NCBI RefSeq assembly: GCF_001017655.1
Contig: NZ_CP010904.1
Location: 750,001 to 782,000, forward strand
From: Kiritimatiella glycovorans
Lineage (GTDB): Bacteria; Verrucomicrobiota; Kiritimatiellia; Kiritimatiellales; Kiritimatiellaceae
DNA length: 32,000 bases
Reading direction: 5' to 3'
The number at the start of each line of letters is the position of its first letter. Position 1 is the first letter of the stretch. The translations under genes were made by a program, and so were the position numbers. Under the pieces are notes generated by a model. The model searched no databases, had not been told where the DNA came from, and was given only the letters and a program-made list of their open reading frames with translations. This document shows, in pieces, positions 3,007 to 23,188 of this stretch.

Positions 3007-3196
3007 CATGAAGAGCATGAAGGTGGGTTGAGGGGCGGTGAACATAATTCGTACTCTTACTCGTACTCGTATGCGTACTCGGAGCGCCGAAGGCGCGATC
3101 CCATTCCCCCTGTTCAGGGAACTCGAGTACGAGTACGAATTATGTTCTCTCTGAAACCCGATTTCGACTTCGATCCGGATTTCGAGATCCCATCCG
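3007..3196 (+). repeat. Composite intergenic repeat, copy A: CATGAAG box, long palindrome, and GATTTCGA-rich module
   Basis: 3007-3130 is near-identical to 9230-9359 in the same orientation. 3160-3196 matches 23288-23324 at 28 of 37 positions by hand alignment. Confidence 0.85.
3040..3147. repeat. 108-bp imperfect palindrome (MITE-like or structured-RNA-like) embedded in repeat copy A
   Basis: The left arm GAACATAATTCGTACTC(TTACTC)GTACTCG (3040-3069) pairs with the right arm CGAGTACGAGTACGAATTATGTTC (3124-3147): 17 bp perfect plus 7 bp after a 6-nt bulge. The loop holds a second small hairpin, GCGCC-GAA-GGCGC. Confidence 0.8.
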
Positions 3197-3552: not shown

Positions 3553-6198
3553 CTATTTTGCGGATTCGAGCGGATGGCCGTGTTCATCGAAGAGCTTCCA
3601 CAAACCGGGATTCCCGTTCTCATCCAGCTCGCGTCGAGCGATGGAATAATGCCCGTCGGTGCGGCAGCAGGGTTCGCCGTCCGGGCCGAAGTGGCGTTGT
3701 TCTATCAGCAGGTCGCCTTCGAATGTGCATTCATAGCGGTGGATGCCCTTATCATCCGCAACGGGCTGCTCGTGCTGATCGAAATAGCTGACCATTGTGG
3801 CGTTTCCCGTCTCGTCGTATTTTTTACGGACGACGGCGTATCCCCCGGTAGTGTTGACGGGACGGCCCCGGGTGTCGAAAAACAGCCGCTCAAGTTCGCG
3901 GCCCGCTTCGTCGAGCTTCGATCGGTACCCATGGTTCCCGTCGCGATGGGTTGTGGGGGCATTCCCGGCATCATGATAGCGGCGTTCGATCTCGCGCCCC
4001 GACTCGTCATACTTGATATGGAGAAAGGTAAAGCCTTCCTCCGTGTGGGAGGCGGGCCGGCCGTGGGCATCAATGACGCAGAACTCGACGAGTTTACCCT
4101 GTTCGTTCAGAACCTGTCGGAATCCGTAGTCGTAGGTGCTGTGACGGGTCGGGTCGCCGAGGGCATCGAAATAGCGATACGTATCGCCCGTCCCCTCATA
4201 AATGATCTGGCAGCGGTGATATCCTTTCGGGTGAAGTGCGGGTCGTCCGTCTTCATCATAAAAGGACTCGGATGTCCGTCGCCCCTCATCATCGAGCGTC
4301 CATCGAAGCGTCACATAGCCATTGGTGGAAAAGGTCGGCTCGCCGTCGGGTCCGAGAAAGGTTTCCGCGATCTGGCGATCCCGGTCGTCGTGCTCGAATC
4401 GAAGACCGCAGTACCCGCCGGGCATGCGCAGCGGTGTTCCGGAAGCATCGAAGTAGCGCTCCACCTTGCGCCGACCCCGCTCGTCATAACGGAAGCGCAG
4501 GATGGCGATACCCCGGGCATTGGCGCATGGCAGGCGGTCACAGCCGAAATGGACGCGTTCGACGGGATGGCCCCGCTCGTTCCAGGAAAGACGGTAGCCG
4601 TGGCACCCCTCTTCACAAAGCATGGGTTGCCCGCGTTCGTCGTAGTACCGCTCCTCGATTAATCGGTCGAAGCCGTCGTAGATTCGTCGAACCGTGGCAT
4701 ACTCGCACCCTGAGATGGCCGTGGGGTGGTTTTCGATGTTCAGCCACGTCTTTTCGATTTCATTACCGCGGGCATCGTAGCGGCAGACGACGGCGTGATT
4801 GCCGTCCCGGTGCGCGACGGGCTGGTTCGAACACCCGAAGTAGCGGGTTTCCAGGATATTGCCCATGGAATCGCGGCGATAGCTGATCCGGTGTGTCCCG
4901 TCATGATCAAGAACGGGCCGACCATCGGCGCCGAAACAGCGCCAGTCGAGGCAGTTGCCCCGGTCGTCATTGACCAGACGATTGATGGCGTATGCTTGAC
5001 CCTCAGGACAGACCGGATGGTCGTTCAGATCGACCCAGACCTGTTCATCGAGATATCCGTTGCGGTCGAAGGAGAAGTTTCGTCCGTGAAACCCGTTCTC
5101 GTGGAGGCAGGGGTGCCCGTGGCGGTCAAAGTAGCGCTCACGGCCGACGTTCACGGCGTCGATCCACGTATAGCGCTTTTCGGTCACTCCGTCCCGGGAT
5201 TCCGGCTCGCCGTCCAGCCCCAGGTAAACCTCTGAGATGATTCTGCCCTGATCGTCAAAGGCATAGCGTGTACCGTGTGTTTCTGTGGAGGAATGGAGGC
5301 AGGGATCGCCCTCCGGGCCGTAGTGGCGGCTCTGTATCGTATCGCCGCATGGGTTGTATTCGTTGCTCCATGAGTGGAAGTTCCAGCGGTCGTCCACCGC
5401 CGGGCGACCCTGATCGTCGAACAACGTGACGGATACGATATTGCCCCACTTGTCGTGACGGTAGCGTGCCTCGCACCAGCCGCTGCGCACGCAGCAGAGA
5501 TCGTTCGTGCCCTCCGCACCGTAGGAGATGGACCGCACGTGTCTCCCCCCGGAGTAGAAGTAAAGATGACCGGCTGCACCGGCGTGGGAGCGCAGGGGTT
5601 CGTAGCTCTCAAGGGTCCGGCGGCGTGCATCGCGATCTTCCCTTTTCAGCCGCAGGTAACGATGTTCGACGAGGCGACCCTCCTCATTATACCGGAAGGC
5701 GCTGGCGTGAGCCCCTTCCAGGCCGGGCAGGGGCTCGCCGTGAGCGCCGCAGTACTCGACCAGCGTTTCCATCCCCCCCGCTCCGTAGGAGATGCGCACG
5801 TATTCGGCCGCCGCCGTCACGGCGTTGGTGGTCGTTCCGGCCGCCTGGATCGCCTGGCGCTGACGCTGCGCGTATCCCCCGGCGCCGACGAAGTGTGCGA
5901 AGCGGGAGCGCGGCTGTCCCTCGTCGAGGTTCAGGGCGTTGTACTGCAGGATCCAGACGACCTTGCCCTCGGCGTTTTCGCCGATCTCATGCATCACGCG
6001 ACCCTGTTCGTCGGTGACGAAACGCCACTGACACACTTCGCGCAGGAGCCAGTCGGGTACCACCCCCGTCGCATCGCCGGAGTCTGATCCCCATTCCTCT
6101 CTTCCCCAGAGATAGGTGTCGCACCAGTGATCGATCGTGGGCCGGTCATGGCCGTTCACGGCAATAACCCGGTCGACCGGCCGCTTTGGAAACTGCAT
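3553..6198 (-). CDS. Protein of about 20 tandem YD/RHS-like beta-hairpin repeats (~37 aa each); probably the C-terminal part of a longer ORF (see 6460-6481)
   Basis: Repeating pattern [YF]FD..G.P......G.H.....YD..G...E, for example RYFDASGTPLRMPGGYCGLRFEHDDRDRQIAETF, SFYDEDGRPALHPKGYHRCQIIYEG and LFFDTRGRPVNTTGGYAVVRKKYDETGNATMVSYF. No signal peptide after Met 6198. The same frame stays open upstream to 6510, with no ATG/GTG/TTG, and encodes a TM helix there. Confidence 0.8.
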   Translation of the reverse strand: MQFPKRPVDRVIAVNGHDRPTIDHWCDTYLWGREEWGSDSGDATGVVPDWLLREVCQWRFVTDEQGRVMHEIGENAEGKVVWILQYNALNLDEGQPRSRFAHFVGAGGYAQRQRQAIQAAGTTTNAVTAAAEYVRISYGAGGMETLVEYCGAHGEPLPGLEGAHASAFRYNEEGRLVEHRYLRLKREDRDARRRTLESYEPLRSHAGAAGHLYFYSGGRHVRSISYGAEGTNDLCCVRSGWCEARYRHDKWGNIVSVTLFDDQGRPAVDDRWNFHSWSNEYNPCGDTIQSRHYGPEGDPCLHSSTETHGTRYAFDDQGRIISEVYLGLDGEPESRDGVTEKRYTWIDAVNVGRERYFDRHGHPCLHENGFHGRNFSFDRNGYLDEQVWVDLNDHPVCPEGQAYAINRLVNDDRGNCLDWRCFGADGRPVLDHDGTHRISYRRDSMGNILETRYFGCSNQPVAHRDGNHAVVCRYDARGNEIEKTWLNIENHPTAISGCEYATVRRIYDGFDRLIEERYYDERGQPMLCEEGCHGYRLSWNERGHPVERVHFGCDRLPCANARGIAILRFRYDERGRRKVERYFDASGTPLRMPGGYCGLRFEHDDRDRQIAETFLGPDGEPTFSTNGYVTLRWTLDDEGRRTSESFYDEDGRPALHPKGYHRCQIIYEGTGDTYRYFDALGDPTRHSTYDYGFRQVLNEQGKLVEFCVIDAHGRPASHTEEGFTFLHIKYDESGREIERRYHDAGNAPTTHRDGNHGYRSKLDEAGRELERLFFDTRGRPVNTTGGYAVVRKKYDETGNATMVSYFDQHEQPVADDKGIHRYECTFEGDLLIEQRHFGPDGEPCCRTDGHYSIARRELDENGNPGLWKLFDEHGHPLESAK

Positions 6199-7735
6199 CT
6201 CCGTCCAATTGAATTTCGGACGGTGCAGACCGTGGTATACAAACTTGAACGAAGTGCTGCGGTGACCCGCCTCGTCCGGGGTCAGGGGGCTGAGGCCTGC
6301 CGGGATACCGTGGCGCTTGGTGAATGTCTCGTAGTAGCGGACATGGGTCCGGACGAAGAACCACCAGCTCGAGCCGATCAGTCCCGCGAGCAGGAGGACG
6401 AGCAGCGCCGCACTGCCGGCGGCGACCCTGAAGCGCCTGCGCTCGCGACGAAGGCGGAGCCTCTCTTCGCGCGCGCTCCGCTGATTCGCGCCGCGCCCGG
6501 ACGATCGGCGTCAGGACGTCGTGGGTCAGTTCGATCATCGCTACGCCGCGCACATTTTCGATGTGCAGCAGGCGTCGCTCCACCAGCAGATCCACCGCCC
6601 GGCGCGCCGGGGCGGTTTCCAGTCCCGTGCCGCGGATGAAGTCCTCGACCGGCGCGAACATCCTCCGGCCGTCGCCCGTGAGCAGGGCATCTTCAACGGC
6701 GCGCGCTACCGGGTCGGCCACCGCCGCCATGGTCGCGTCGTAAAACTCCTCGAACACGCGTCGTCCGACCCCGGAGAGCAGGTCGGCCCCGATGTCCGTG
6801 CGACCCTGTTCGATCCGGCGGCGATTGAGTTCGAAACACATCAGCGAGAGCAGGGCGGGTTCAACCAGAATGTCGTCGAGCGCGGCGTTGGGGGAAGCAC
6901 CCGCAGCCATGCGCACGATCGTCTCCGCCGTGGGCTCGTCCATCAGGTGTTGCCCCGAAGCGCGCAGCGCGCCGAAGGCGGCCTCGCCGCTGAAGGGCTC
7001 CAGCCGCATCTCGTTGGACATGATCGAAGGACAGCGATCGCGGAGCGCCAGCAGCTCGCAGAGGAAATCCTCACGCAGGCTCAGCAGCAGGCGGACGCGA
7101 TCGAGCTGATATTCGAACGGAGGATCTTCTCCGCGCTCGGCGGCCGCTTCAATCATCGCCGCCGCAGCCCGCGGGACGCGATGTTCCGCGAGACAGGAAA
7201 GATCTTCGAGCAGCGCGTCCACAGCCCGGGGGCAGCGGCGGCCGAGAGTAAAGGCTTCTTCGAACTGGTCGAAAACGAGCACCGGCACGGCGGGGCGGTT
7301 GCGCGGCGTCCAGAAAAAGAGGCCGGCGCGGTTAAAGGTCTCCCAGAGCGTGCGGTCGGTACGTTCCAGCGGACGTTCTTCGGAACTTTCGACGGTGATC
7401 CCCGCATCCTTCAGCGCGGCGCGGACGGCGCTCAGCACCTGGTCGCGCAGGACCTCCACGGTACAGTTCTCATCGAAGCTGAGCCTGAGGTAGACGGGGA
7501 TAAAGCGCTCTTCACGGAGTTGCGGGAACACACCGGCCCTGAGCAGCGAGGTCTTGCCGACGCCGGAGATGCTGTAGAGCACGGAGAGCCGACTGCGCTT
7601 GACGCGTCGCAGCAGTTCGGCGGTCTCCTCCGCGCGTCCGTGGAAGAAGTCCCGGGACGATTCGGAAAAGGCGACCAGGCCCGGCCACGGCTGGTCGCGT
7701 GTGAGTTCCGGGGACGGGACGGCGGGACGCGTCAT
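6146..7735 (-). CDS. STAND-type (NACHT-like) P-loop NTPase; the last ~110 codons of this frame are probably not genuine
   Basis: ATG 7735 overlaps the upstream stop as ATGA. PWPGLVAFSESSRDFFHGR lead-in, Walker A LYSISGVGKTSLLRAG, Walker B VPVLVFDQFEEAF, a helical domain, and a winged-helix-like end RRLLHIENVRGVAMIELTHDVL. The 76 codons that the ORF track places upstream of Met 7735 overlap the previous gene and are discounted. Confidence 0.8.
   Translation of the reverse strand: MTRPAVPSPELTRDQPWPGLVAFSESSRDFFHGRAEETAELLRRVKRSRLSVLYSISGVGKTSLLRAGVFPQLREERFIPVYLRLSFDENCTVEVLRDQVLSAVRAALKDAGITVESSEERPLERTDRTLWETFNRAGLFFWTPRNRPAVPVLVFDQFEEAFTLGRRCPRAVDALLEDLSCLAEHRVPRAAAAMIEAAAERGEDPPFEYQLDRVRLLLSLREDFLCELLALRDRCPSIMSNEMRLEPFSGEAAFGALRASGQHLMDEPTAETIVRMAAGASPNAALDDILVEPALLSLMCFELNRRRIEQGRTDIGADLLSGVGRRVFEEFYDATMAAVADPVARAVEDALLTGDGRRMFAPVEDFIRGTGLETAPARRAVDLLVERRLLHIENVRGVAMIELTHDVLTPIVRARRESAERARREAPPSSRAQALQGRRRQCGAARPPARGTDRLELVVLRPDPCPLLRDIHQAPRYPGRPQPPDPGRGGSPQHFVQVCIPRSAPSEIQLDGDAVSKAAGRPGYCRERP
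6460..6481 (-). other. Probable frame-change site joining the STAND NTPase ORF to the TM/repeat ORF
   Basis: A (GC)n run CGCGCGCGC sits at 6468-6476. Upstream of it the NTPase frame reads sensibly (..IELTHDVLTPIVRARRESAERAR). Downstream, the +1 frame reads EERLRLRRERRRFRVAAGSAALLVLLLAGLIGSSWWFFVRTHVRYYETF.. and runs without a stop into the 6198 ORF. The original frame instead becomes Pro/Arg/Gly-rich, featureless sequence. Confidence 0.6.
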
Positions 7736-9120
7736 GCCGGAACCCCCATCAGTTCTTTCTGCTTGTTCCGGTCGGCCTTGTGCAGTTCGCGGACCAGGGC
7801 CTGGGCAGGCAGGCCGGCGGGGCAGGAGGTCATTTGGAGGCTGCGGAAGGCAAGCGGGAGATTTTTCGCCTCGTAGGGCTCCGTGTCGTCGATCACGGCG
7901 GGGAAGATAAAGCCCGGCCGGCGTTCGGCGTTGCGCTCGACGAAATCGCGAGCCTCCTTCCACTCGCGGTAGAAGAAACGGTCCTGCGAAGCGGCCTCGG
8001 TATTCGCGGATATCAGCGGCACAAACGCGGCGGCCTTGTGAATGTTGCGGACGATCTCGGGCACCCAGGCGCAGCCGGGGGCGAGCTTGGCTTCATCCAG
8101 CCACACCTCGAGCCCCCACTCATCGAGCGCATCGCGCATGGCACGCGCCGCCTCAAGGTCCTCGCGCGCGTAGCTGAGAAAGATCGCTCCCTCGGTCATG
8201 GGCGCGCGCCGGGGTCCGCCCGGGCCCGCGGCCCCCTTGCGTGAGGTCTCGCGCCAGCGGTCGCGCAATTCGCGCACGAATTCTCCGGCCGAACCCTCGT
8301 AGAGTCCCGCATCGGCGCAGTAGCGCGTGACGAAGTGGCAGAAGGAGGTGTCGTGCGCCTCCCGGCCGCCGAGGAAAAGTCCCTGGGTCTCATGACTGTT
8401 GATCGGCGCATTCTTGATCAGGCGCAGGAGGAAGCGACCGAGCCAGTCGGGATACCCGAAACCGATCAACAACAGATTGCTGGTCTTCAGTTCGTCGAAG
8501 AGTACGTTCGGCTGGCGTTCGGGATTCTGCAGCGCGGTTACAAATTCCAGTGTGTCGATCTCGCTGAGGGCGTAATTCGGCCGGGCGCTCGGCGCGCCCA
8601 TCAGGTGGTAGACGATCGGCTGTTCCAGCGTGTCGAGCTGGATCGTAGAGGGCAGGTCGACGGGGGCATCAGGCGAATAGACCAGTTCGCTCGCATCCCC
8701 TAGAGCTTCGTCGAGCAGGGGGCAGATGGTCAGGTTCACGAAAAGGCGGAACGAGGTGATCTCGGCGAGCGCCCGGAGGTTGGGGCCCGGCTTGAGCGGA
8801 GCGCGGAGAATCGCCTTGGCCTTCGGGTAGACCGACTTGATGTTGCCGCCCCCGTCGAGATGGGCGCGAACGACCGCATCCACATTCGGAGATGTCCCGT
8901 TTTCGTTTTCAGGCGACACGTCGAGCGATTGTGCCAGCGTCTCGGCGAGGTAGTCCTGGAACAGCCGCACGGTGCCGTCGATTTCGACATCCATAATGCG
9001 CGGCCCGAGAACGGGAATGACCCGTCCTTCGTCCAGGAACTCCAGCACGTCTTCGATGGAATAGGTCTGACGCATACCACGCCGATCATTTGAACGGGCC
9101 CACTTAACGGCCCGCCGCAT
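7732..9120 (-). CDS. Fusion protein: N-terminal SIR2-like (SIR2_2-type) domain plus C-terminal TIR domain
   Basis: N-terminal half: VIPVLGPRI.., PIVYHLMGAPSARPNYALSEIDTLEF and NLLLIGFGYPDWLGRFLL parallel the GAG / KLHG..T..DY / GYS..D blocks of SIR2_2 proteins. C-terminal half: AIFLSYAREDLEAARAMRDALDEWGLEVWLDEAKLAPGCAWVPEIVRNIHKAAAFVPLISANT...FFYREWKEA is a typical bacterial TIR. Alternative start at ATG 9075. Confidence 0.75.
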   Translation of the reverse strand: MRRAVKWARSNDRRGMRQTYSIEDVLEFLDEGRVIPVLGPRIMDVEIDGTVRLFQDYLAETLAQSLDVSPENENGTSPNVDAVVRAHLDGGGNIKSVYPKAKAILRAPLKPGPNLRALAEITSFRLFVNLTICPLLDEALGDASELVYSPDAPVDLPSTIQLDTLEQPIVYHLMGAPSARPNYALSEIDTLEFVTALQNPERQPNVLFDELKTSNLLLIGFGYPDWLGRFLLRLIKNAPINSHETQGLFLGGREAHDTSFCHFVTRYCADAGLYEGSAGEFVRELRDRWRETSRKGAAGPGGPRRAPMTEGAIFLSYAREDLEAARAMRDALDEWGLEVWLDEAKLAPGCAWVPEIVRNIHKAAAFVPLISANTEAASQDRFFYREWKEARDFVERNAERRPGFIFPAVIDDTEPYEAKNLPLAFRSLQMTSCPAGLPAQALVRELHKADRNKQKELMGVPA

Positions 9121-9229: not shown

Positions 9230-9359
9230 CATGAAGAGCATGAAGGTGGGTTGAGAGGGGTGAACATAATTCGTACTCTTACTCTTACTCGTACTCGTAC
9301 GCGTACTCGGAGCGCCGAAGGCGCGATCCCACTCCCCCCTGTTCAGGGAACTCGAGTAC
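9230..9359 (+). repeat. Composite intergenic repeat, copy B (CATGAAG box plus a degenerate palindrome)
   Basis: Aligns with 3007-3130 in direct orientation, with a 6-nt TTACTC expansion, a 1-nt indel and a few substitutions. The right palindrome arm is degraded (GAGTATGAGTACGATGTGAC). It lies about 110 nt upstream of the SIR2-TIR start. Confidence 0.85.
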
Positions 9360-9491
9360 AAGCATTGCTTCGCGGAGTATGAGTACGATGTGACGCGAGC
9401 GGATTTTTAATCCAGCCGCTACGATTCCGGCCGTTCCGCAAGAATCCATGAAGAACCCTGTTTTTCCTCAAACGAAACACCCGCATCCGCC

Positions 9492-11594: not shown

Positions 11595-14054
11595 ATGGCA
11601 CTGAAAAAATCCCAACTCTACACCTCCCTCTGGCAGTCCTGCGACGAGTTGCGCGGCGGCATGGACGCCTCCCAGTACAAGGACTACGTCCTGACGCTGC
11701 TGTTCATGAAGTACGTCAGCGACAAGCAGGATTCGCTGATCGAGGTTCCCGAGGGCGGCAGCTTCCAGGACATGGTAGCGCTGAAGGGCGACAAGGAGAT
11801 CGGCGACAAGATCAACAAGATCATCGGGCGCTTGGCCGAGGCCAACGATCTCAAAGGCGTCATCGACCAGGCGGACTTCAACGACGAGACCAAACTCGGT
11901 TCCGGCAAGGACATGCAGGACCGGCTCTCCAAGCTCGTGAGTATTTTTGACCAGCTGGATCTGGGCGCCAACCGCGCCGACGGCGACGACCTGCTGGGCG
12001 ACACCTACGAGTACCTGATGCGCCACTTCGCCACCGAGTCCGGCAAGAGCAAGGGCCAGTTCTACACCCCCGGCGAGGTCTCGCGTGTGATCGCCCAGGT
12101 GGTGGGTATCGGCCCGGATACGCGCCAGGACGAGACGCTGTATGACCCCACCTGCGGCTCGGGCTCGCTGCTGCTGCGCGCCGCTTACGAGGCCCCGCAG
12201 GGTCTGAGCATCTACGGCCAGGAAAACGACAACGCCACCTGGGCGCTGGCGAAGATGAACATGATCCTGCACGACTACCCCACCGCCGAACTGTGGCGGG
12301 ACAACACCCTCTCGCGCCCCTATTTCAAGAGCGCCGACGGCCGCCTCAAGACCTTCGACTACGCCGTCGCCAATCCGCCGTTCTCCGCCAAGTCCTGGAC
12401 CAACGGCCTGGACCCGGCCAACGACGAGTTCGACCGCTTCGAATACGGCATCCCGCCGGCCAAGAACGGCGACTACGCCTTTTTGCTGCACCTGATCAAG
12501 TCGCTCAGGTCCACCGGCAAGGGCGCCATCATCCTGCCCCACGGCGTGCTGTTTCGCGGCAACAAGGAGGCCGACATCCGCCGCAAGCTGATAAGCCGCG
12601 GGCTGATCAAGGGCATTATCGGTCTCCCGGCCAACCTCTTCTACGGTACCGGCATCCCCGCCTGCATCCTGGTCATCGACAAGCAACAGGCCGCCGGCCG
12701 CGAGCACATCTTTATGGTCGACGCCAGCCGCGAGTTCATCAAGGACGGCAACAAGAACCGCCTGCGCTCGCGCGACATCCACAAGATCGTGGACGTATTC
12801 AACCACCAGCGCGATCTGCCCGGCTACGCCCGCCAAGTGCCGCTGGCCGAAATCGCCTCCGAGGCCAACGACTCCAACCTCAACATCCCGCGCTACATCG
12901 ACACGGGCGAGGCCGAGGACCGCCACGACCTCGGCGCGCATCTCAACGGCGGCATCCCCCAGCGCGACGTGGACGCGCTGGCACCCTACTGGTCCGTACT
13001 GCCCGGCCTGCGCGAGGCCTTGTTCAAAGACAACGGCCAGCCCGGCTACCTGGAAGCGAAGGTCGAGACCCGGCAAGTCAAGCCCACCGTGCTGGCGCAC
13101 CCCGACTTCCAGGCCTTCGCGGGCACCGTCAGCGGCGTCATCAACGCCTGGCAGGCGGCCCATCGCTCGGCACTGCACGCCCTGCAAGCCGGCGACAAGC
13201 CCCGGGATGTGATCCACGCCCTGTCCGATGACCTGCTCCAGCGCTTTGCTGAGATACCACTGCTGGACCGCTACGCCGTCTACCAGCGCCTGATGGACTA
13301 CTGGGCCGACGTCATGGCCGACGACGCCCACCTCATCGCCGCCGAGGGCTGGCAGGACGCCGCCCGCCCCCGCGGCGTCATCGACAACAAGGAACGCAAG
13401 ATCAAGGAAGCCCCCGACCTCACCATCGGCAGCGGCAAAAAGGCCAGGAAATACAAGCTGGACCTGATCCCGCCCGCGCTGGTCATCACCCGCTACTTCG
13501 CCGACCAGCAGGCCAGGCTCGAAACACTACAGGCCGAGCAGGAAACCGCCACCCGCGAGCTGGAGGAATTCATCGAGGAACAGGCGTCGATGGATGGGGG
13601 CGAGGAAGACCCCTTGAGCGAGGTCAAAAACGACAAGGGCAAGGTCACCAAAACCGAGATCCCCAAACGCCTCAAGGCCCTCAAGGGCGAGCCGGACAGC
13701 GCCGACGAGATCGCCGCCCTCAAGCAGTGCAAAACGCTCATGGAGGCCGAGGCCAGCGCCAAGACGGCCGTCAAGAACGCCCAGGCCGAGCTCGATCAGG
13801 CCGTGCTCGCCCGCTACGAATCCCTCACCGAGGACGAGATCAGGCAGCTCACGGTGGACGACAAATGGCTGGCCGACATCCGCGCCGCCATCGAATCCGA
13901 AGTCGAGCGCATCACCAACCAACTCGCCGGCCGCGTCCGCGAGCTGGAAGAACGCTACGCCGAGCCCTTGCCGGCCATCGAGCGAGAGGTCGAGGACCTG
14001 GCCGCGCGGGTCACCGGCCACCTGGAGAAAATGGGGGTGCGGGTCGATGGTTGA
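11595..14054 (+). CDS. hsdM: Type I restriction-modification methyltransferase subunit M, with a long coiled-coil C-terminal extension
   Basis: N-terminal HsdM-type LWQSCDELRGGMDASQYKDYVLTLLFMKYVSDK. FYTPGEVS. SAM motif YDPTCGSGSLLL. Catalytic ANPPFS. 819 aa in total. Confidence 0.92.
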   Translation: MALKKSQLYTSLWQSCDELRGGMDASQYKDYVLTLLFMKYVSDKQDSLIEVPEGGSFQDMVALKGDKEIGDKINKIIGRLAEANDLKGVIDQADFNDETKLGSGKDMQDRLSKLVSIFDQLDLGANRADGDDLLGDTYEYLMRHFATESGKSKGQFYTPGEVSRVIAQVVGIGPDTRQDETLYDPTCGSGSLLLRAAYEAPQGLSIYGQENDNATWALAKMNMILHDYPTAELWRDNTLSRPYFKSADGRLKTFDYAVANPPFSAKSWTNGLDPANDEFDRFEYGIPPAKNGDYAFLLHLIKSLRSTGKGAIILPHGVLFRGNKEADIRRKLISRGLIKGIIGLPANLFYGTGIPACILVIDKQQAAGREHIFMVDASREFIKDGNKNRLRSRDIHKIVDVFNHQRDLPGYARQVPLAEIASEANDSNLNIPRYIDTGEAEDRHDLGAHLNGGIPQRDVDALAPYWSVLPGLREALFKDNGQPGYLEAKVETRQVKPTVLAHPDFQAFAGTVSGVINAWQAAHRSALHALQAGDKPRDVIHALSDDLLQRFAEIPLLDRYAVYQRLMDYWADVMADDAHLIAAEGWQDAARPRGVIDNKERKIKEAPDLTIGSGKKARKYKLDLIPPALVITRYFADQQARLETLQAEQETATRELEEFIEEQASMDGGEEDPLSEVKNDKGKVTKTEIPKRLKALKGEPDSADEIAALKQCKTLMEAEASAKTAVKNAQAELDQAVLARYESLTEDEIRQLTVDDKWLADIRAAIESEVERITNQLAGRVRELEERYAEPLPAIEREVEDLAARVTGHLEKMGVRVDG

Positions 14055-15342
14055 GCGGAGCGAGATGATGGAACAGGAGGCCATGCGGGATGCGTCGCTC
14101 GCTTACTCGGTAGAGGCCAGGACGGCTATCGCAGAGGATGTGCCGCCTGGGTACAAGCGGACTGAAGTGGGGGTGATTCCGGAGGATTGGAGCGTCAAGA
14201 CGGTAAGTGAATTCGGTCAAGTGATCACAGGAGGAACCCCTTCCACGAAAGTGCGGGCTTACTGGGGAGATGCTTATCCGTGGGTAACGCCAACAGATAT
14301 ATCTACAAACAAAGATATTTGCTCTACTGAGCGGCACTTGAGTGAGGCTGGGTTCAGAGTAATGCGGGGGCTCCCGGCGAATACGGTGCTAGTTACATGC
14401 ATTGCTAGCATTGGAAAGAATGCAGTTCTGAGAACGCCAGGATCCTGTAACCAACAAATCAACGCTGTGATCCCTGACCGAGACTATGACTCTGACTTTC
14501 TGTACTACCTCTTTGAGTTCTCCAAAAACTACTTGATCGGAAGCGCGGGGACTACTGCTACAAGTATCATTTCCAAAAGTCTATTCAGCAGTTTGGCCTT
14601 TGCTCTACCTGCCATCCGTGAACAACGCGCCATCGCCACCGCCCTGTCGGACGCGGACGCGCTGATCGAATCCCTCGACCGCCTGATCGCCAAAAAGCGC
14701 GCCATCAAACAGGCCGCCATGCAACAACTCCTCACCGGCCAGACCCGCTTGCCGGGCTTCACCGGCGAATGGGAGACGACGCGGTTGGGGGAGATTGCTG
14801 AGATTGTCATGGGGCAATCCCCAGGTTCTGCCTTCTACAACGCGAAAGGGGAAGGGCTACCGTTAATACAAGGCAATGCTGATATTGAGAACCGTCAGAC
14901 GATTCGACGGATAAGCACTACCCAGATCACCAAGAAAGGCAGGCGAGGGGATATTCTTTTGTCAGTGCGCGCGCCAGTCGGCGAAGTCTCGCGCGCAACC
15001 TTCGATGTTTGCTTAGGCCGCGGTGTCTGCGCCCTGCGATTTCCGACCGATTTCTTATTTCACTACTTGGTTTACCTGGAGCCCTCATGGGGAAAGCACT
15101 CAAAAGGATCAACTTTTGATTCAGTGAACTCTGCCGACATTAAGGCCCTGGAGGTCGCGCTACCAGGCACCGAAGAACAAACCGCCATCGCCACCGTCCT
15201 CTCCGATATGGACACCGAAATCGAAGCCCTGGAGCGCCGCCGCGACAAAGCCCGACAGATCAAGCAGGGCATGATGCAGCAGCTCCTCACCGGCCGGGTG
15301 CGGTTGGTGGAACCGGAATCACCCACGGAGGCAAAGGCATGA
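14047..15342 (+). CDS. hsdS: Type I restriction-modification specificity subunit S (two target-recognition domains)
   Basis: Overlaps the hsdM stop by 8 nt. Two conserved spacer helices: LPAIREQRAIATALSDADALIESLDRLIAKKRAIKQAAMQQLLTGQTRLPGF and LPGTEEQTAIATVLSDMDTEIEALERRRDKARQIKQGMMQQLLTGRVRL. Each follows a variable domain of visibly lower GC. Confidence 0.9.
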   Translation: MVERSEMMEQEAMRDASLAYSVEARTAIAEDVPPGYKRTEVGVIPEDWSVKTVSEFGQVITGGTPSTKVRAYWGDAYPWVTPTDISTNKDICSTERHLSEAGFRVMRGLPANTVLVTCIASIGKNAVLRTPGSCNQQINAVIPDRDYDSDFLYYLFEFSKNYLIGSAGTTATSIISKSLFSSLAFALPAIREQRAIATALSDADALIESLDRLIAKKRAIKQAAMQQLLTGQTRLPGFTGEWETTRLGEIAEIVMGQSPGSAFYNAKGEGLPLIQGNADIENRQTIRRISTTQITKKGRRGDILLSVRAPVGEVSRATFDVCLGRGVCALRFPTDFLFHYLVYLEPSWGKHSKGSTFDSVNSADIKALEVALPGTEEQTAIATVLSDMDTEIEALERRRDKARQIKQGMMQQLLTGRVRLVEPESPTEAKA

Positions 15343-17441
15343 AGGCCACGGAAGCCAAGTTGCTCGATTTCCTCAAGAAGTCGCCGCAGTTCATTATTCC
15401 GATCTACCAGCGCACCTATTCCTGGACGGAGCCGCAGTGCCGGCAACTCTGGGACGATGTGCTTCGGGCCGGATCGAACGATGCCATCAGCGCACACTTC
15501 ATCGGCTCTATTGTTTACATCGAACAGGGCTTGTATCAGGTGTCCAGCCAGTCGCCGCTGCTCGTTATTGACGGCCAGCAACGGCTGACCACGGCCATGT
15601 TGATGATTGAGGCGCTATGCCGCCATCTGGGCGATGAGGAGCCGATTGACGGCTTTTCGGCGAAGAAGTTGCGTAATTACTACCTGCTGAATCCGCTCGA
15701 GGAGGGGGAGCGTGGGTTCAAGCTGCTGCTGACAGAAACGGACAAGGACAGCCTGCTGGCGCTCTTTCGGCAGAAGCCACTCCCGGCAGATGGTTCTCTG
15801 CGGATCCAGGAGAACTTTGAATGGTTCGAGCAGCAGGTGAATCGACTTGAGGATTTGGTCCCCTTGTGTCGTGGGCTGGCCAAGCTGGTGATCGTGGATA
15901 TTGCCCTGAGCCGCGACCAGGATAACCCCCAGCTCATCTTCGAAAGCATGAACTCCACCGGCCGGGAGCTGAGCCAGGCCGACCTGATCCGCAACTTTGT
16001 GCTGATGGGGCTTGAGCCGGAGCACCAGCGCCGACTCTATGAGGACCTCTGGCGCCCGATGGAGCTGAACTTTGGCCAAGAGGGCTACGGCGCCCATTTC
16101 GACTGGTTCATGCGCCATTATCTGACAGTGCGAACCGGCGATATTCCGAAAATCGGTGATGTGTATGAAGCCTTCAAGGCCTACGCCCGCGCGCCGAAAC
16201 AGGCAGAACAGGGCGTAGATGCATTGGTGGCGGATATCCACGCCTTTGCCGGATTCTACTGCGCCATGGCGCTGGGTAAGGAAAACGACAAATTGCTCGC
16301 AGAAGCGTTCCGTGACCTGCGCGAACTGAAGGTCGATGTGGCGTATCCGTTCCTGCTGGAACTTTACACGGATTATGAAAACGGACTCTTGTCACGGGAG
16401 GATTTTGCTGCGGCCGTCCGGCTGGTGGAGGCCTATGTGTTTCGCCGCGCCGTCTGTGCAATTCCCACTAACTCTCTGAACAAGACGTTTGCCAACCTTG
16501 GGCGCGGCCTGAAAAAGGATCGGTACCTGGAAAGCATTCAGGTGCACTTTTTGAATCTGCCCTCGTATCGCCGCTTTCCGAGAGATGATGAATTCCGGCG
16601 AGAGCTGGCGACCCGTGACCTGTATAACTTCCGGAGTCGCAGCTACTGGTTGCGGCGGCTGGAGAATCACGACCGAAAGGAAAGGGTGCCGGTGGATGAA
16701 TATACCATCGAGCATATTCTGCCGCAGAACGACAACTTGTCCCCGCAGTGGCGGCAGGCCCTTGGGGAGGAGTGGCAACGCATTCAGGAAACCTGGCTGC
16801 ACAGCCTGGGTAACCTGACCCTCACCGGCTACAACGCCGAGTACAGTGATCGACCCTTTACCGACAAGCGCGACATGAAAGGGGGCTTCAGACAAAGCCC
16901 TTTGCGAGTGAACGAGGGACTTGGGTTACTTGAGACCTGGAACGAGCAAGCTATAAAGGAGCGGGCGCAACGATTGGCGGAATGGGCCATCAAGGTCTGG
17001 CCCGCGCCCCGGGTCGACGACGACGTGCTGGCAGCGTATCGGACAGAGAAAGCGCCCCAGGCGACCTATAGCCTAAGCGACCACCCTCAGCTTATTGAAG
17101 GCAAGCCCATGCGGGCGCTGTTTGAGGCGTTACGCAAGGACGTCCTGGCGTTGGACCCTGGCGTCACCGAGGAGGTCCTAAAGCTCTATATCGCTTTCAA
17201 GGCTGAGAGCAACTTCGTCGATGTGGTGCCACAAAAGAGCCGTCTGCGCTTGTCGTTGAACATGGCCTTCCATGAGTTGCATGATCCGAAACAACTGGCG
17301 AAGGACGTAACCAACCTTGGGCGCTGGGGTAACGGGGATGTGGAAGTCGGGCTGAGCTCGCCGGATGACTTGCCCTATGTAATGGGGCTGGTGCGCCAGG
17401 CCTTCGAGAAGCAGATGGGTGATATGGAGGTCATGACATGA
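15339..17441 (+). CDS. DUF262 + DUF1524 (GmrSD-like, ParB-type NTPase plus His-Me/HNH nuclease) protein
   Basis: ATGA overlap with hsdS. N-terminal FIIPIYQRTYSW and VIDGQQRLTT (DUF262). Further on, EYTIEHILPQN ... LHSLGNLTLTGYN (DUF1524 nuclease motif). An extra C-terminal domain of about 150 aa. Confidence 0.85.
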   Translation: MKATEAKLLDFLKKSPQFIIPIYQRTYSWTEPQCRQLWDDVLRAGSNDAISAHFIGSIVYIEQGLYQVSSQSPLLVIDGQQRLTTAMLMIEALCRHLGDEEPIDGFSAKKLRNYYLLNPLEEGERGFKLLLTETDKDSLLALFRQKPLPADGSLRIQENFEWFEQQVNRLEDLVPLCRGLAKLVIVDIALSRDQDNPQLIFESMNSTGRELSQADLIRNFVLMGLEPEHQRRLYEDLWRPMELNFGQEGYGAHFDWFMRHYLTVRTGDIPKIGDVYEAFKAYARAPKQAEQGVDALVADIHAFAGFYCAMALGKENDKLLAEAFRDLRELKVDVAYPFLLELYTDYENGLLSREDFAAAVRLVEAYVFRRAVCAIPTNSLNKTFANLGRGLKKDRYLESIQVHFLNLPSYRRFPRDDEFRRELATRDLYNFRSRSYWLRRLENHDRKERVPVDEYTIEHILPQNDNLSPQWRQALGEEWQRIQETWLHSLGNLTLTGYNAEYSDRPFTDKRDMKGGFRQSPLRVNEGLGLLETWNEQAIKERAQRLAEWAIKVWPAPRVDDDVLAAYRTEKAPQATYSLSDHPQLIEGKPMRALFEALRKDVLALDPGVTEEVLKLYIAFKAESNFVDVVPQKSRLRLSLNMAFHELHDPKQLAKDVTNLGRWGNGDVEVGLSSPDDLPYVMGLVRQAFEKQMGDMEVMT

Positions 17442-20400
17442 GTCAGGTCGGCCAACGCGAACGACAAACCCAGCAGCAGGTGCTGCGCTTTTTCCAGGAC
17501 GAGCTGGGGTACCACTACCTGGGGGACTGGAAGGATCGCGACGGCAACCGCAATGTCGAGGAAGGCCCGCTACGCGACTGGCTGGCGCGGCAGGGCCACG
17601 ACGACAATGTCATCACCAAGGCGCTGCGCGAGCTGGACCAGGCGGCGGCGATTGGCGGCAGCAAGACCCTGTACGACGCTAACCGCGCCGTCTACGAAAA
17701 GCTGCGCTACGGCGTGCACGTCAAACCGTCGGTGCAGGAGCAGACGGTCACCGTCTGGCTGATTGACTGGGCGAACCCCGAGAACAATGACTTCGCCGTG
17801 GCCGAGGAGGTCACGGTGGTCGGCGCCAACACCAAGCGCCCGGATGTGGTGCTTTATGTCAACGGCATTGCTCTTGGGGTGCTGGAGCTCAAGCGCTCCA
17901 CCGTGGCGGTGGCCGAGGGCATGCGCCAGAGCCTGGACAACCAGAAGCGGGATTTTATCCAGCCGTTTTTCGCCACCGTGCAGCTTGTCATGGCCGGCAA
18001 CCCCAGCGAGGGCCTGCGCTACGGAGTGATCGAAACGCCCGAGAAGTTCTGGATGGAGTGGAAGGAGCCGTCGGAGATTGAGGATCCACTGGAGCGTGGG
18101 TTGCACCAGCTCTGCCGCAAGGAACGGCTGCTGGAGATCGTCCACGACTTCATGGTCTTTGATGCCGGCACCAAGAAGACCTGCCGGCACAACCAGTTCT
18201 TCGGCGTGCGCGCCGCGCAGGACCATGTGCGCCGGTGCCAGGGCGGCATTCTCTGGCACACCCAGGGCAGCGGCAAGTCGCTGATCATGGTGTGGCTGGC
18301 GAAATGGATTCGCGAGAACGTGAGCGACGCCCGGGTGCTGATCATCACCGACCGCACCGAGCTGGACGAGCAGATCGAGAAGGTGTTCAAGGGCGTGGAT
18401 GAGCAGATCCACCGCACCAAGAGCGGCGCGGACCTGATCGACGTGCTCAACCGCTCTGATGAGTGGCTGATGGCCTCACTGATCCACAAGTTCGGCGCCT
18501 CGGAGGAAGGCGACGTGGAGGCCTTTATCCAGGACCTGCGCCGCCACCTGCCGAAAGGCTTTGCGGCCAGGGGTAATTTGTTCGTGTTCGTGGATGAGTG
18601 CCACCGCACCCAGTCCGGCAAGCTGCACGAGGCGATGAAGGCCCTGCTGCCCGAGGCGATGCTGATCGGCTTTACCGGCACGCCGCTGTTAAAGCAGGAC
18701 AAGCGCACCAGCCTGGAAGTCTTCGGCCCCTACATCCACAGCTACCGCTTCGACGAGGCGGTGCGCGACGGCGTCGTGCTGGACCTGCGCTACGAGGCGC
18801 GGGACATCGACCAGCACGTCACCTCGCAGGACAAGATCGACCAGTGGTTCGACCGTAAGACCCAGGGCCTGAACGACTACGCCCGCGCCCAGCTCAAGAA
18901 ACGCTGGGGCACGCTGCAGAAGGTGCTCAGCTCCCGGGACCGGCTGGAGAAGATCGTCTCCGACATCCTCTGGGACATGGCCACGCGCGACCGGCTGATG
19001 AGCGGGCACGGCAACGCCATGCTGGTGGCCGGCAGCATCTATTCGGCCTGCCGGCTGTTCGAGATGTTCGAGCAGACCGAGCTGAAGGGCAAGTGCGCCA
19101 TCGTTACGTCCTATGTGCCGTCCACGGCCGACATCAAGGGCGAGGCCACCGGCGAGGGCGAGACGGAGAAGCTGCACCAGTACGCCATCTACCGCCGCAC
19201 GCTGGCCGAGCATTTCAACGAGCCGGAGGAGACGGCCGTCAACAAGGTGGAGACCTTCGAGCAGGAGGTGAAAAAGCGCTTCATCGACGAACCCGGCCAG
19301 ATGAAGCTGCTGATCGTGGTCGACAAGCTACTCACCGGTTTCGATGCGCCGCCGGCGACCTACCTCTACATCGACAAGCAGATGCGCGACCACGGCCTGT
19401 TCCAGGCCATTTGCCGCGTGAATCGCCTGCACACCGAGGACAAGGACGTCGGCTACATCATCGACTACAAGGACCTGTTCAAGTCCCTGGAGCAGTCCAT
19501 CCAGGACTACACGGGCGGCGCCTTTGATGCCTTTGACGCCGAGGATGTGGACGGGCTGCTGGAGGACCGGCTGGACAAGGCGCGCGAACGGCTGGAAGAA
19601 ACCCGCGAAGCGGTCAAGGCCCTGTGCGAGGCGGTGGAGCCGCCCAGGGACAGCGCCGCTTACCGGCGCTATTTTGTCGGCCCGAGCAACGCGCCCGAGG
19701 TGCAGAAGGGCAACGAGCCGAAACGCCTGGCCCTGTACAAACACGTCGGCGCCTTCCTGCGCGCCTACGCTGACCTGGGCAACGAGATGCAGCGGGCCGG
19801 TTACAGCCAGGCCGAGGCGGCCGCGATCAAGGCGGAGGTCGAACAGTACGAAAAGGTCCGCGAGGAGGTCAAGCTGGCCAGCGGCGACTACATCGACATG
19901 AAGATGTACGAGCCGGCCATGCGCCACCTGCTGGACAGCTACATCCGCGCGGAAGAGAGCGAAAAGCTATCCGCGTTTGACGACATGACGCTGGTGGAGC
20001 TGGTGGTGGAGCGCGGCGAGGCGGCGGTCGACAGCCTGCCGGCGTCGATTGCCGGCGACAAGGAAGCGATGGCCGAAACCATCGAGAACAACGTGCGCCG
20101 GCTGATCATCGACGAGATGGCGGTCAACCCGAAGTACTACGAGAGGATGTCAGAGCTGCTCGACGCCCTGATCGAGCAGCGCCGGAAGGAAGCGCTGGAT
20201 TACAAGGAGTACCTGCGCCGCATCGTGGAGCTGACGCGACAGGCGGCCCAGCGGGAAGACACAAGCCGCTATCCCACCGGCATCGACACCCCGGCGCAAC
20301 AGGCCCTGTACGACAATTTGGGTGATACGGCGTCTTCGGCAATGGCAGAGGCAACTGCCCCCTATGGTGGTACACGACCGGCCTCAGCGAGGGTACGACT

Positions 20401-21299: not shown

Positions 21300-21405
21300 A
21301 GAGCTGCGCATACCAATAGCGTCAACTCGGACCGGCTTTTCCGCTGGCGCTCCCAAGCCGGCCGGTTACGCTAGACGTTAGCAGCCAAGAAACGGAGAGA
21401 GAATT

Positions 21406-22137: not shown

Positions 22138-22155
22138 ATATATAAGGATATAATC

Positions 22156-23163: not shown

Positions 23164-23188
23164 CTGCTAACAATCGCATGCACTCGGA

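What the first reader, a model, noticed from the sequence alone, without database searches (positions are those of the whole stretch)
7732..9120. Two NADase-type domains (SIR2-like and TIR) fused in one 462-aa protein
- The N-terminal ~300 aa carry SIR2_2-like blocks (VLGPRI, YHLMG...SEIDTLEF, LLLIGFGYPDW).
- The C-terminal ~140 aa are a canonical bacterial TIR (IFLSYAREDLEAA...VWLDE...FVPLISANT...YREWKEA).
- In Thoeris these two domain types sit on separate proteins with a signal-producer / effector relationship, so a covalent fusion is unusual.
- The first glycine-rich SIR2 block is degenerate (VLGPRI rather than GAG.S). One domain may therefore have become a regulatory or nucleotide-sensing module rather than a catalyst.
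Basis: partly seen in the sequence, partly recalled or inferred. Interest (0 to 1): 0.6.

Follow-up and report, generated by a model that had tools for sequence, protein, structure and literature searches.

The report
Dead-SIR2/TIR effector of membrane STAND switch
This gene encodes an apparently active NAD-cleaving TIR domain fused to a SIR2-like domain that has lost its catalytic residues. It belongs to a widespread but unnamed two-gene module, paired with a membrane-spanning NLR-like ATPase, and in this genome the partner gene is broken by a frameshift.

Summary
The ORF is real. It lies on the minus strand and encodes 462 aa (447 aa from Met16). An AlphaFold model (pLDDT 86.5) has two domains:
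- an N-terminal defence-type SIR2 fold (Z 17-18.6 to ThsA, SPARSA, KomC, DSR2);
- a C-terminal TIR (Z 15-16.5 to SPARTA).

**Catalytic residues.** The TIR keeps its catalytic Glu in 110/110 relatives. The SIR2-like half has Thr at the catalytic Asn position and Leu/Phe/Met at the His position across the whole family. It is therefore not a second NADase by the known mechanism.

**Frequency.** The fusion is not rare: the N-domain profile finds 836 clusters (50% identity) at E<=1e-30, and at least 588 stretches in species genomes were confirmed. I found no paper, PADLOC model or NCBIfam model that names it.

**Partner.** A dedicated nSTAND1 NTPase with a membrane helix and a large variable repeat domain always follows it:
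- 78 of 78 loci with enough contig downstream;
- exact co-occurrence in 6 of 401 genomes of the phylum;
- one natural single-chain fusion.

Relatives add or substitute kinase, cyclase or Death-like domains but keep the SIR2-like domain. I read that domain as an adaptor or scaffold.

**This copy.** The NTPase-TM-YD-repeat gene is frameshifted at about 6427-6500, so the system may be defunct here. Earlier reports of this scan describe the same module in at least six other genomes.

The parts
7732..9120 (-). Gene A: SIR2-like/TIR fusion protein, 462 aa (447 aa if it starts at Met16, nt 9075).
   Evidence: ORF and translation. 158 homologues, most carrying PF13289 and PF13676. AF2 model at pLDDT 86.5.
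8221..9075 (-). SIR2-like domain (residues about 16-300). It has the defence-type SIR2 fold, but Thr131 sits at the catalytic Asn position, Met174 at the His position, and Cys133 where the family keeps Asp.
   Evidence: Foldseek and VIA-align give Z 17-18.6 to ThsA, SPARSA, KomC and DSR2. hhalign against 8 canonical SIR2_2 proteins gives probability 93.5.
7756..8196 (-). TIR domain (residues 309-455) with the catalytic Glu386 and the conserved Ser316, Asp321, Trp340 and Asp342.
   Evidence: Pfam TIR_2, E 2e-15. In the PDB profile alignment the Glu matches SPARTA Glu77. Z 15-16.5 to SPARTA TIR. The Glu is present in 110/110 relatives.
7732..7735 (-). ATGA overlap: the stop codon of gene A overlaps the start codon of the NTPase gene, which implies translational coupling.
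   Evidence: Translation of 6146-7963 places Met77 at nt 7735. The stop of gene A is at 7732-7734.
6500..7735 (-). Gene B, part 1: the nSTAND1 STAND NTPase module, with Walker A (GVGKTS) and Walker B (LVFDQFEE) present. Its reading frame then runs on as about 100 low-complexity residues to a stop at 6146.
   Evidence: Pfam PF20703, E 8e-27. 40% identity to the G117 partner over 424 residues. tblastn with 8 single-chain homologues.
6427..6500 (-). Frameshift zone. Homology to single-chain relatives jumps from one frame to the next here. The zone contains a short GC-dinucleotide run near 6470.
   Evidence: Eight full-length homologues of 1256-1534 aa were mapped by tblastn. Seven map residues 3-17 to 387-400 to 7693..6500 in frame -2, and all eight map a start at residues 434-515 onward to 6378/6366..3559 in frame -3. 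Sequence.
6352..6426 (-). Predicted single transmembrane helix of gene B. It is encoded in the repeat-protein frame, upstream of any start codon, and is preceded by an Arg-rich stretch.
   Evidence: Three-frame translation. The G131 and G117 partners have equivalent helices. 55 of 58 partner proteins have such a helix directly after the NTPase, and 43 of 55 repeat-array homologues have one.
3553..6198 (-). Gene B, part 2: an 881-aa ORF of about 23 YD/Rhs-type beta-hairpin repeats, the putative sensor (probably an ectodomain). Its frame is open upstream of the ATG at 6198 and carries the TM helix there.
   Evidence: Translation. Pfam RHS_repeat, E 9e-7. AF2 pLDDT 86.6, all beta hairpins. Foldseek to Rhs and teneurin shells at E 1e-29, but TM-scores only 0.17-0.34. 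Nearly all of the 64 homologues (596-1534 aa) are longer and most carry an N-terminal nSTAND1, kinase or TIR head.
9230..9360 (.). Copy of a dispersed ~125-bp repeat upstream of the operon. Its mate lies at 3007-3130, downstream.
   Evidence: A 62-nt core at 95% identity. The element has 43 matches across the genome, so it is not a cassette-specific boundary.

Best explanation
Gene A is the effector subunit of a two-gene, NLR-like module.

Shown by tool results:
- Gene A is a degenerate SIR2-fold domain joined to an intact-looking TIR domain.
- It is translationally coupled to gene B. In intact relatives, gene B is one polypeptide made of an nSTAND1 STAND NTPase, a basic stretch plus a single membrane helix, and a large variable repeat domain. 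That domain is a YD/Rhs-type array here and is TPR-like in the Opitutaceae copy (G144) that gave TPR hits.

Inferred mechanism:
1. The repeat domain recognises a cue. Given the Arg-rich stretch before the helix, it probably faces out of the cytoplasm.
2. The NTPase oligomerises on the inner face of the membrane.
3. Gene A docks on it through the SIR2-like domain, which acts as adaptor and oligomerisation scaffold rather than enzyme.
4. The clustered TIR domains form composite active sites and cleave NAD+, causing growth arrest or abortive infection. Alternatively they make an ADP-ribose-derived signal.

In this genome gene B is split by a frameshift, and gene A has lost an Asp that 96% of relatives keep. 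This copy is probably inactive or decaying, unless the frameshift is an assembly error.
For: Folds and residues:
- Both folds are confirmed.
- The TIR Glu is present in 110/110 relatives and aligns to the catalytic Glu77 of SPARTA.
- At the SIR2 Asn position the family has Thr in 103/110 and never Asn. At the canonical His position it has Leu/Phe/Met in 110/110. The same holds in 149 diverse representatives, of which 4 have Asn.

Pairing with the NTPase:
- ATGA overlap in the window.
- The NTPase domain starts 6-487 nt downstream on the same strand in 78 of 80 related loci. The other two have under 800 nt of contig left.
- The same pairing holds in distant members: G131 and Paraburkholderia caribensis at 28.5% identity.
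- In one 401-genome sample of the phylum, the fusion and this NTPase subfamily occur in exactly the same 6 genomes, and they are adjacent.
- P0261 is a natural nSTAND1 + SIR2-like + TIR single chain.

SIR2-like domain as the constant part:
- Relatives carry Pkinase + SIR2-like, cyclase + SIR2-like + degenerate TIR, SIR2-like + bDLD3 + TIR, and TIR + SIR2-like + TIR.

Membrane helix and context:
- The helix is conserved in 55 of 58 partners.
- Heads ahead of the helix are preceded by basic stretches.
- The frameshift is documented.
- The operon neighbours a type I R-M operon with an embedded GmrSD.
Against: - Nothing has been tested experimentally for any family member that I could find.
- No physical contact between A and B was shown, and co-folding was not available.
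- Strong conservation of Thr-Thr-Thr-Phe-Asp, of a His two residues before the canonical site (84/110) and of a Trp/Arg/Arg motif suggests a retained ligand pocket. Such a pocket would fit a sensor role as well as an adaptor role.
- The window's NTPase has no recognisable adaptor (EAD or Death-like) domain to pair with A.
- Topology rests only on hydrophobicity and the positive-inside rule. In the proteobacterial clade both sides of the helix are basic.
- The TIR could be a signal maker rather than an NAD+ depleter.
- An earlier scan report on another genome says the module does not sit in defence islands there.
Confidence: 0.55

Rival explanations
1. The SIR2-like domain is a ligand sensor, not a passive adaptor. 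It still binds NAD+, ADP-ribose or a TIR-made cyclic ADPR isomer and gates the TIR allosterically. Alternatively it catalyses a non-canonical reaction with a different residue set.
For: - The Rossmann-like core and the motifs around the pocket stay highly conserved: Gly39 is invariant, Thr131 is kept in 94% and the motif Asp in 96%. His172 is kept in 76% and lies on the same face of the strand as the lost catalytic His.
- The fold is closest to NAD-binding defence SIR2 domains.
Against: - The glycine loop that holds the NAD pyrophosphate is altered: the second Gly and the Ser are gone.
- The window's own copy has lost the conserved Asp.
- In known systems the signal sensor is SLOG, Macro or SAVED. 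To my knowledge SIR2 has not been shown in that role.
Confidence: 0.25
2. It is a Thoeris-like signalling system. The TIR produces a nucleotide signal that activates a separate effector elsewhere, and the STAND protein only triggers it.
For: - Bacterial TIRs with this Glu can make cADPR isomers (established for Thoeris ThsB; my own knowledge).
- NCBIfam gives weak partial matches to Thoeris type III ThcB4 and to a retron TIR.
Against: - The conserved module has only two genes in 78 of 78 loci.
- No SLOG, Macro or SAVED domain was found in A, in B or in the window's neighbours.
- P0001 gave no ThsB_TIR (PF08937) match.
- The closest TIR structures are the NAD-depleting SPARTA TIRs.
Confidence: 0.1
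3. In this genome the locus is a relic. The frameshift is real, gene B makes a truncated soluble NTPase at most, and gene A is an orphan drifting towards loss. This is compatible with the best explanation for the family as a whole.
For: - The frame change is supported by 8 homologues.
- The repeat ORF has lost its TM helix and its head.
- Only this copy has Cys for the 96%-conserved Asp, and its SIR2_2 score falls below the Pfam cut-off.
- Another copy in the phylum (G163) is truncated next to a transposase-type HTH gene.
Against: - Both ORFs are otherwise free of stops over 5.5 kb, and the TIR motifs are intact.
- A one- or two-base error at a GC-rich run in a single-contig assembly cannot be excluded.
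- Split versions could still work.
Confidence: 0.4
4. It is not anti-phage immunity. It is a membrane receptor for envelope or cell-contact cues, such as neighbouring cells or Rhs/teneurin-like adhesion, that uses TIR chemistry for signalling or self-destruction.
For: - The YD/Rhs-type array resembles extracellular adhesion and toxin shells.
- The same array follows Ser/Thr kinase heads in PknB-like single-pass layouts.
- An earlier scan note reports that the module lies outside defence islands in another genome.
Against: - Here it sits next to a type I R-M / GmrSD operon.
- STAND plus TIR is the standard architecture of immune and abortive systems (Kaur et al. 2021, PMC8195603).
Confidence: 0.15

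Closest known systems
Avs5 / AVAST type 5 (SIR2-STAND), e.g. EfAvs5
   Same: Both combine a defence-type SIR2 fold at the effector end of a STAND NTPase with a C-terminal sensor, and Avs5 is activated by oligomerisation. Avs5 structures are among the top fold matches (9nc9, 9jap).
   Different: - Avs5 is one chain with a catalytic SIR2. Here the SIR2-like domain lacks Asn and His, an added TIR carries the catalytic residue, and the effector is a separate gene.
- The NTPase is nSTAND1 with a membrane helix.
- No PADLOC defence model of any kind matched the NTPase significantly; the only hit was PDC-S68 at E 0.009.
nSTAND1-centred conflict systems (Kaur, Burroughs, Iyer, Aravind, eLife 2021, PMC8195603)
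   Same: - Same NTPase clade (PF20703).
- Same logic of a variable effector, a central NTPase and a variable C-terminal sensor.
- TIR and SIR2 are listed there among effectors.
- One relative carries bDLD3 between the SIR2-like and TIR domains.
   Different: - Those systems couple effector and NTPase through paired EAD or Death-like domains. This copy has none.
- A pseudo-SIR2 joined to TIR as a fixed partner, and a membrane-spanning NTPase, were not found in that paper by term search.
Thoeris (ThsB TIR + ThsA SIR2-SLOG)
   Same: Both use a TIR and a SIR2-fold domain. ThsA is the best fold match of the N-domain.
   Different: - One polypeptide rather than two.
- No SLOG or Macro sensor.
- The SIR2 catalytic dyad is absent.
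- The TIR is of TIR_2 type, not ThsB_TIR.
- The obligate partner is a STAND NTPase.
Short pAgo systems SPARTA (TIR-APAZ) and SPARSA (SIR2-APAZ)
   Same: These are the closest solved structures for each half: SPARTA TIR at Z 15-16.5 and about 20% identity, and SPARSA SIR2 at Z 18.3. The TIR Glu aligns with SPARTA Glu77.
   Different: There is no APAZ domain and no Argonaute partner. Activation would come from a STAND NTPase rather than from guide/target nucleic acid.
SAMD9/SAMD9L (animal antiviral proteins with a SIR2-like domain next to a STAND-type P-loop NTPase)
   Same: Both place a SIR2-like domain beside a STAND-type NTPase in an innate-immune protein. This rests on my own knowledge and on titles and abstracts listed; I did not read the papers.
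   Different: SAMD9/9L are eukaryotic, single-chain, have no TIR and are not membrane-anchored. No homology was tested here.

Membership tests
SIR2 / sirtuin-like NADases (Pfam SIR2_2, defence SIR2 of ThsA, DSR2, Avs5) | Rossmann-type SIR2 fold | tested here: met
   Z 17-18.6, rmsd 3.6-4.3 over about 250 residues to ThsA, SPARSA, KomC and DSR2. Foldseek E 1e-8 to 1e-11.
SIR2 / sirtuin-like NADases (Pfam SIR2_2, defence SIR2 of ThsA, DSR2, Avs5) | Sequence score above the Pfam gathering threshold | tested here: not met
   18.6 bits against a cut-off of 24.5 for this protein. Most relatives do pass.
SIR2 / sirtuin-like NADases (Pfam SIR2_2, defence SIR2 of ThsA, DSR2, Avs5) | Catalytic Asn (in the TTNYD motif) and catalytic His (in the HG motif) | tested here: not met
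   Profile-profile alignment to 8 canonical SIR2_2 proteins (probability 93.5) puts Thr at the Asn position and a hydrophobic residue at the His position. The family has 0/110 Asn and 0/110 His at these columns. Residue-level structural superposition was not available.
SIR2 / sirtuin-like NADases (Pfam SIR2_2, defence SIR2 of ThsA, DSR2, Avs5) | Glycine-rich NAD loop (GAGxS) | tested here: not met
   Only the first Gly is kept. The second position is Pro, Ala or Ser, and the Ser is replaced by Leu.
Enzymatic TIR domains (bacterial/SARM1-type NADases) | TIR fold and a Pfam score above cut-off | tested here: met
   TIR_2 at 57.6 bits against a cut-off of 28. Z 15-16.5 to SPARTA TIRs.
Enzymatic TIR domains (bacterial/SARM1-type NADases) | Catalytic glutamate | tested here: met
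   Glu386 is invariant in 110/110 relatives and is aligned with Glu77 of SPARTA TIR-APAZ.
Enzymatic TIR domains (bacterial/SARM1-type NADases) | NAD+ cleavage activity | not testable with these tools
   This needs an enzyme assay.
Thoeris | Separate ThsB-type TIR gene plus a ThsA effector with a SLOG or Macro sensor and an active SIR2 or TM effector | tested here: not met
   The two domains share one chain. There are no SLOG, Macro or ThsB_TIR hits. The SIR2 dyad is absent.
Avs5 / SIR2-STAND | Single polypeptide of catalytic SIR2, Avs-type STAND and sensor | tested here: not met
   There are two genes. The SIR2 is degenerate. No PADLOC defence model, Avs included, matched the NTPase significantly.
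nSTAND1 conflict systems (Kaur et al. 2021) | nSTAND1 NTPase with intact Walker motifs | tested here: met
   PF20703, E 8e-27. Walker A and Walker B are visible.
nSTAND1 conflict systems (Kaur et al. 2021) | Effector coupled through matching EAD or Death-like adaptor domains | tested here: not met
   No EAD or bDLD hit in gene A (E up to 1) or in the NTPase. A relative, P0181, has bDLD3.
nSTAND1 conflict systems (Kaur et al. 2021) | Variable C-terminal repeat or sensor region on the NTPase | tested here: met
   A YD/Rhs-type array here and in G131, and a TPR-like region in the Opitutaceae copy G144. In this window it is separated from the NTPase by a frameshift.

The most novel reading that the evidence does not exclude
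The module is a bacterial outside-in immune receptor. A STAND (NLR-type) NTPase spans the membrane and reads an extracytoplasmic cue with a fast-changing YD/Rhs, TPR or WD40 ectodomain. It passes the signal to a cytoplasmic TIR enzyme through a pseudo-enzyme SIR2 adaptor. That would combine NLR and Toll-like-receptor logic in one prokaryotic system.
Probability: 0.3. Interest if true: 0.8.

Novelty: new variant of a known kind. Interest (0 to 1): 0.55.

Why it matters
STAND/NLR-like proteins with TIR or SIR2 effectors are established bacterial immune devices. The known ones are cytoplasmic single chains with active effectors. This family adds three features that are testable in a simple two-gene system:
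- a sirtuin-fold pseudo-enzyme kept under selection as a constant partner of changeable effectors;
- an effector encoded apart from its NTPase, yet strictly co-inherited with it;
- an NTPase anchored in the membrane, with its sensor probably outside the cytoplasm.

The family is large, found in hundreds of species across Pseudomonadota, Verrucomicrobiota and others, and is unnamed in the resources I could query. Characterising one intact pair would therefore annotate many genomes. This particular copy is a poor experimental model because its partner gene is frameshifted.

Tried and rejected
- **Plus-strand reading.** Reading the stated coordinates on the plus strand gives stops. The gene is on the minus strand.
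- **PDB sequence search for the SIR2 half.** The full profile A1 found only TIR chains, plus one sirtuin at E 1. The N-domain-only profile A2 found nothing relevant. Residue equivalences therefore come from hhalign against canonical SIR2_2 genes fetched from genomes.
Contexts came instead from the genome search, the fetch from genomes and the search for related loci.
- **The search for related loci with the 36-sequence alignment failed** because it had no conserved stretch. It succeeded with a 12-sequence clade alignment. The 80 loci analysed therefore come from one well-populated clade at 69-91% identity to its first sequence. Distant members were checked separately: G000, G131 and Paraburkholderia.
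- **Apparent single long ORFs spanning A and B** in some GC-rich loci are overlapping open frames, not fusions.
- **The 125-bp repeats flanking the operon are not cassette ends.** The element has 43 matches genome-wide.
- **PADLOC and NCBIfam** gave only partial TIR matches for gene A, and nothing significant for the NTPase or the repeat protein.
- **Promoter and terminator scan** gave no more than shuffled sequence.
- **Literature searches.** Searches for the fusion by name, or by the Pfam pair, returned nothing relevant. Kaur et al. 2020 does not mention SIR2.
- **Rhs cocoon.** Foldseek on the repeat model matched Rhs and teneurin only locally (TM 0.17-0.34). I do not claim a closed Rhs cocoon.


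Full report
**1. Observation**

Coordinates 7732-9120 hold an ATG-to-TGA ORF of 462 aa on the minus strand. The plus strand is full of stops. The public protein collection carries the 447-aa version that starts at Met16. This start fits the N-terminal length of relatives.

**2. The two domains**

- Pfam finds TIR_2 at residues 313-416 (E 2e-15). SIR2_2 matches only below threshold: 18.6 bits against a cut-off of 24.5.
- An AlphaFold2 model built on a 36-sequence alignment reached mean pLDDT 86.5.
- Foldseek against the PDB puts defence SIR2 proteins first: ThsA, KomC, Avs5 and DSR2 at E 1e-8 to 1e-11.
- VIA-align separates the two halves. Residues 4-297 align to ThsA, SPARSA SIR2-APAZ, KomC and DSR2 at Z 17-18.6. 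Residues 309-455 align to SPARTA TIR-APAZ at Z 15-16.5.
- The fold assignment of both halves is therefore solid.

**3. Catalytic residues**

I aligned 110 full-length family members.

- The TIR Glu (Glu386) is invariant. In the PDB profile alignment it falls on Glu77 of SPARTA TIR-APAZ.
- For the SIR2 half I fetched canonical SIR2_2 genes from genomes of the same phylum. They carry the usual TTNYD and HG motifs.
- A profile-profile alignment to them gave probability 93.5.
- The canonical Asn column is Thr in 103/110 family members and never Asn.
- The canonical His column is Leu, Phe or Met in 110/110.
- Only the first Gly of the NAD loop survives.
- The same holds in 149 representatives of 50%-identity clusters, of which four have Asn.
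- The window's protein is more eroded than its relatives. It has Cys where 106/110 keep the Asp of the motif.
- A His two residues before the canonical site (84/110) and a Trp/Arg/Arg motif are conserved. A ligand pocket or an interface is therefore still under selection.

**4. Size of the family**

- The word-indexed search gave 158 hits. Most are about 460 aa, carry both Pfam domains, and are at most 39% identical to this protein.
- The exhaustive search with the N-domain profile gave 836 cluster representatives at E<=1e-30 and 2360 at E<=1e-10.
- The ESM Atlas has automatically named 'SIR2-like/TIR' clusters of 337 and 87 members.
- A pattern scan of one genome per species confirmed at least 588 stretches.
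- The fusion is therefore common, not unusual.
- I found no paper describing it. No PADLOC or NCBIfam model covers it.

**5. The partner gene**

- The stop codon of gene A overlaps the ATG of the next gene in an ATGA. That gene is an nSTAND1 STAND NTPase (PF20703, E 8e-27) with Walker A and B motifs.
- The same pairing is seen in four Opitutaceae genomes and one genome of the window's own class.
- In 78 of 80 loci from the species-genome scan, the NTPase domain starts 6-487 nt after the TIR on the same strand. The two exceptions run out of contig.
- A Paraburkholderia caribensis replicon with a member only 28.5% identical shows it too.
- In one 401-genome sample of the phylum, the fusion family and this NTPase subfamily occur in exactly the same six genomes. 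These genomes are related, so they are not independent counts.
- One database protein, P0261, is a single nSTAND1 + SIR2-like + TIR chain.

**6. Modularity**

Among N-domain relatives I found four variant architectures:
- Pkinase + SIR2-like;
- cyclase + SIR2-like + degenerate TIR (G131);
- SIR2-like + bDLD3 + TIR;
- TIR + SIR2-like + TIR.

All of them lack the canonical dyad. The SIR2-like domain is thus the constant element, and the enzyme attached to it varies. This is my main reason to read it as adaptor or scaffold.

**7. Architecture of the partner**

- Directly after the NTPase, 55 of 58 complete partners have a hydrophobic helix of about 20 residues. G117 and G131 have one too.
- In the window this helix (6352-6426) is preceded by an Arg-rich stretch.
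- Downstream lies an 881-aa array of about 23 beta hairpins. Foldseek matches it locally to Rhs and teneurin YD shells.
- No Rhs core or toxin was detected.
- Homologues of this array are almost all longer. They begin with nSTAND1, a Ser/Thr kinase or a TIR domain, followed by a basic stretch and a helix.
- This is the layout of single-pass receptors with a cytoplasmic head. An extracytoplasmic position of the array is an inference from the positive-inside rule, not a result.

**8. The frameshift**

- Eight single-chain homologues of 1256-1534 aa were mapped by tblastn. For seven, residues 3-17 to 387-400 map onto 7693-6500 in one frame. For all eight, a start at residues 434-515 onward maps onto 6378/6366-3559 in the next frame.
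- The membrane helix is encoded in the second frame upstream of any start codon. The first frame continues as about 100 low-complexity residues to a stop at 6146.
- The change therefore lies between about 6500 and 6427, in a GC-rich stretch with a short GC-dinucleotide run.
- I cannot tell a real mutation from an assembly error.
- If it is real, the NTPase has lost both its anchor and its sensor.

**9. Context**

- The window is G000:C1:750001-782000 of a 2.95-Mb single-contig genome.
- An earlier follow-up of this scan names it Kiritimatiella glycovorans.
- I verified only the following. G144 of the 'same phylum' set coincides in coordinates with an Opitutaceae MAG record. That is consistent with Verrucomicrobiota in the GTDB sense.
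- Next to the operon lie an esterase, an HTH gene, and a type I R-M operon with an embedded GmrSD and a YgjP peptidase. This is a defence-island setting.
- The ~125-bp repeats on both sides of the operon belong to a dispersed element with 43 matches in the genome.

**10. Comparison and verdict**

- The module works like an Avs-type or nSTAND1-type NLR system with a TIR effector.
- It fails the membership tests for Thoeris, for Avs5, and for the EAD-coupled nSTAND1 systems as described by Kaur et al. 2021.
- I class it as a new variant of a known kind.
- Earlier reports of this scan reached the same reading for the same module in at least six other genomes. That is agreement between AI readers, not independent evidence.
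- Specific to this window:
  - the YD/Rhs-type sensor;
  - the frameshift;
  - the extra erosion of the SIR2-like motif;
  - the defence-island neighbourhood.

Noticed in passing
window 3007-3130 and 9230-9360 (a further copy was reported near 23255-23324): A ~125-bp dispersed repeat with GTACTC hexamer runs flanks the operon. It has 43 matches across the 2.95-Mb genome, so it is a REP- or MITE-like intergenic element rather than a cassette boundary.
   Followed up: partly
window 11595-21299: A type I R-M operon (hsdM, hsdS, hsdR) carries a GmrSD-type DUF262/DUF1524 nuclease plus DUF5655 inserted between hsdS and hsdR, followed by a trailing YgjP-like metallopeptidase. The gene junctions overlap.
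   Followed up: partly
window 21000-23200 and 23528-24967: A low-GC stretch (39-47% against about 62% elsewhere) encodes an RDD-family/zinc-ribbon protein and a 335-aa ORF with no Pfam match. It is followed by a Mutator-family transposase remnant. This is probably horizontally acquired DNA.
   Followed up: no
proteins P0275-P0329: The YD/Rhs-type hairpin array is a shared C-terminal module. Three different cytoplasmic heads precede it (nSTAND1 NTPase, Ser/Thr kinase, TIR), usually with a basic stretch and one membrane helix in between. The TIR-TM-array proteins have a Toll-like-receptor-like layout.
   Followed up: partly
L026:9492-11453 (G131, same class as the window's genome): This variant partner protein of 653 aa has a class III cyclase-like domain, then the SIR2-like domain, then a TIR-like tail that has lost the usual motifs. 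It is coupled by a 4-nt overlap to an nSTAND1-TM-YD-repeat protein of 1276 aa.
   Followed up: partly
L025:9551-11201 (G163): A family member is truncated inside its TIR domain at 358 aa and is followed by a gene with an HTH_33 transposase-type domain. This looks like an insertion-disrupted copy.
   Followed up: no
G000:C1:1814666-1815118 (L032), outside the window: The same genome has a second SIR2_2 gene with an intact TTNYD motif and HG dyad (414-aa open frame). A catalytic-looking defence-type SIR2 therefore exists elsewhere in the genome.
   Followed up: no
L028, L029, L031 (three genomes of one family in the phylum): Stand-alone ~290-aa proteins score above the SIR2_2 cut-off yet also lack the Asn and His and have a Gly-Pro loop. 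They may be another lineage of pseudo-SIR2 proteins.
   Followed up: no
L021, L023, L024 (Opitutaceae loci): In these genomes the module sits in clusters with several other large genes that begin with the same type of TIR domain, with three or four TIR genes within 10 kb.
   Followed up: no
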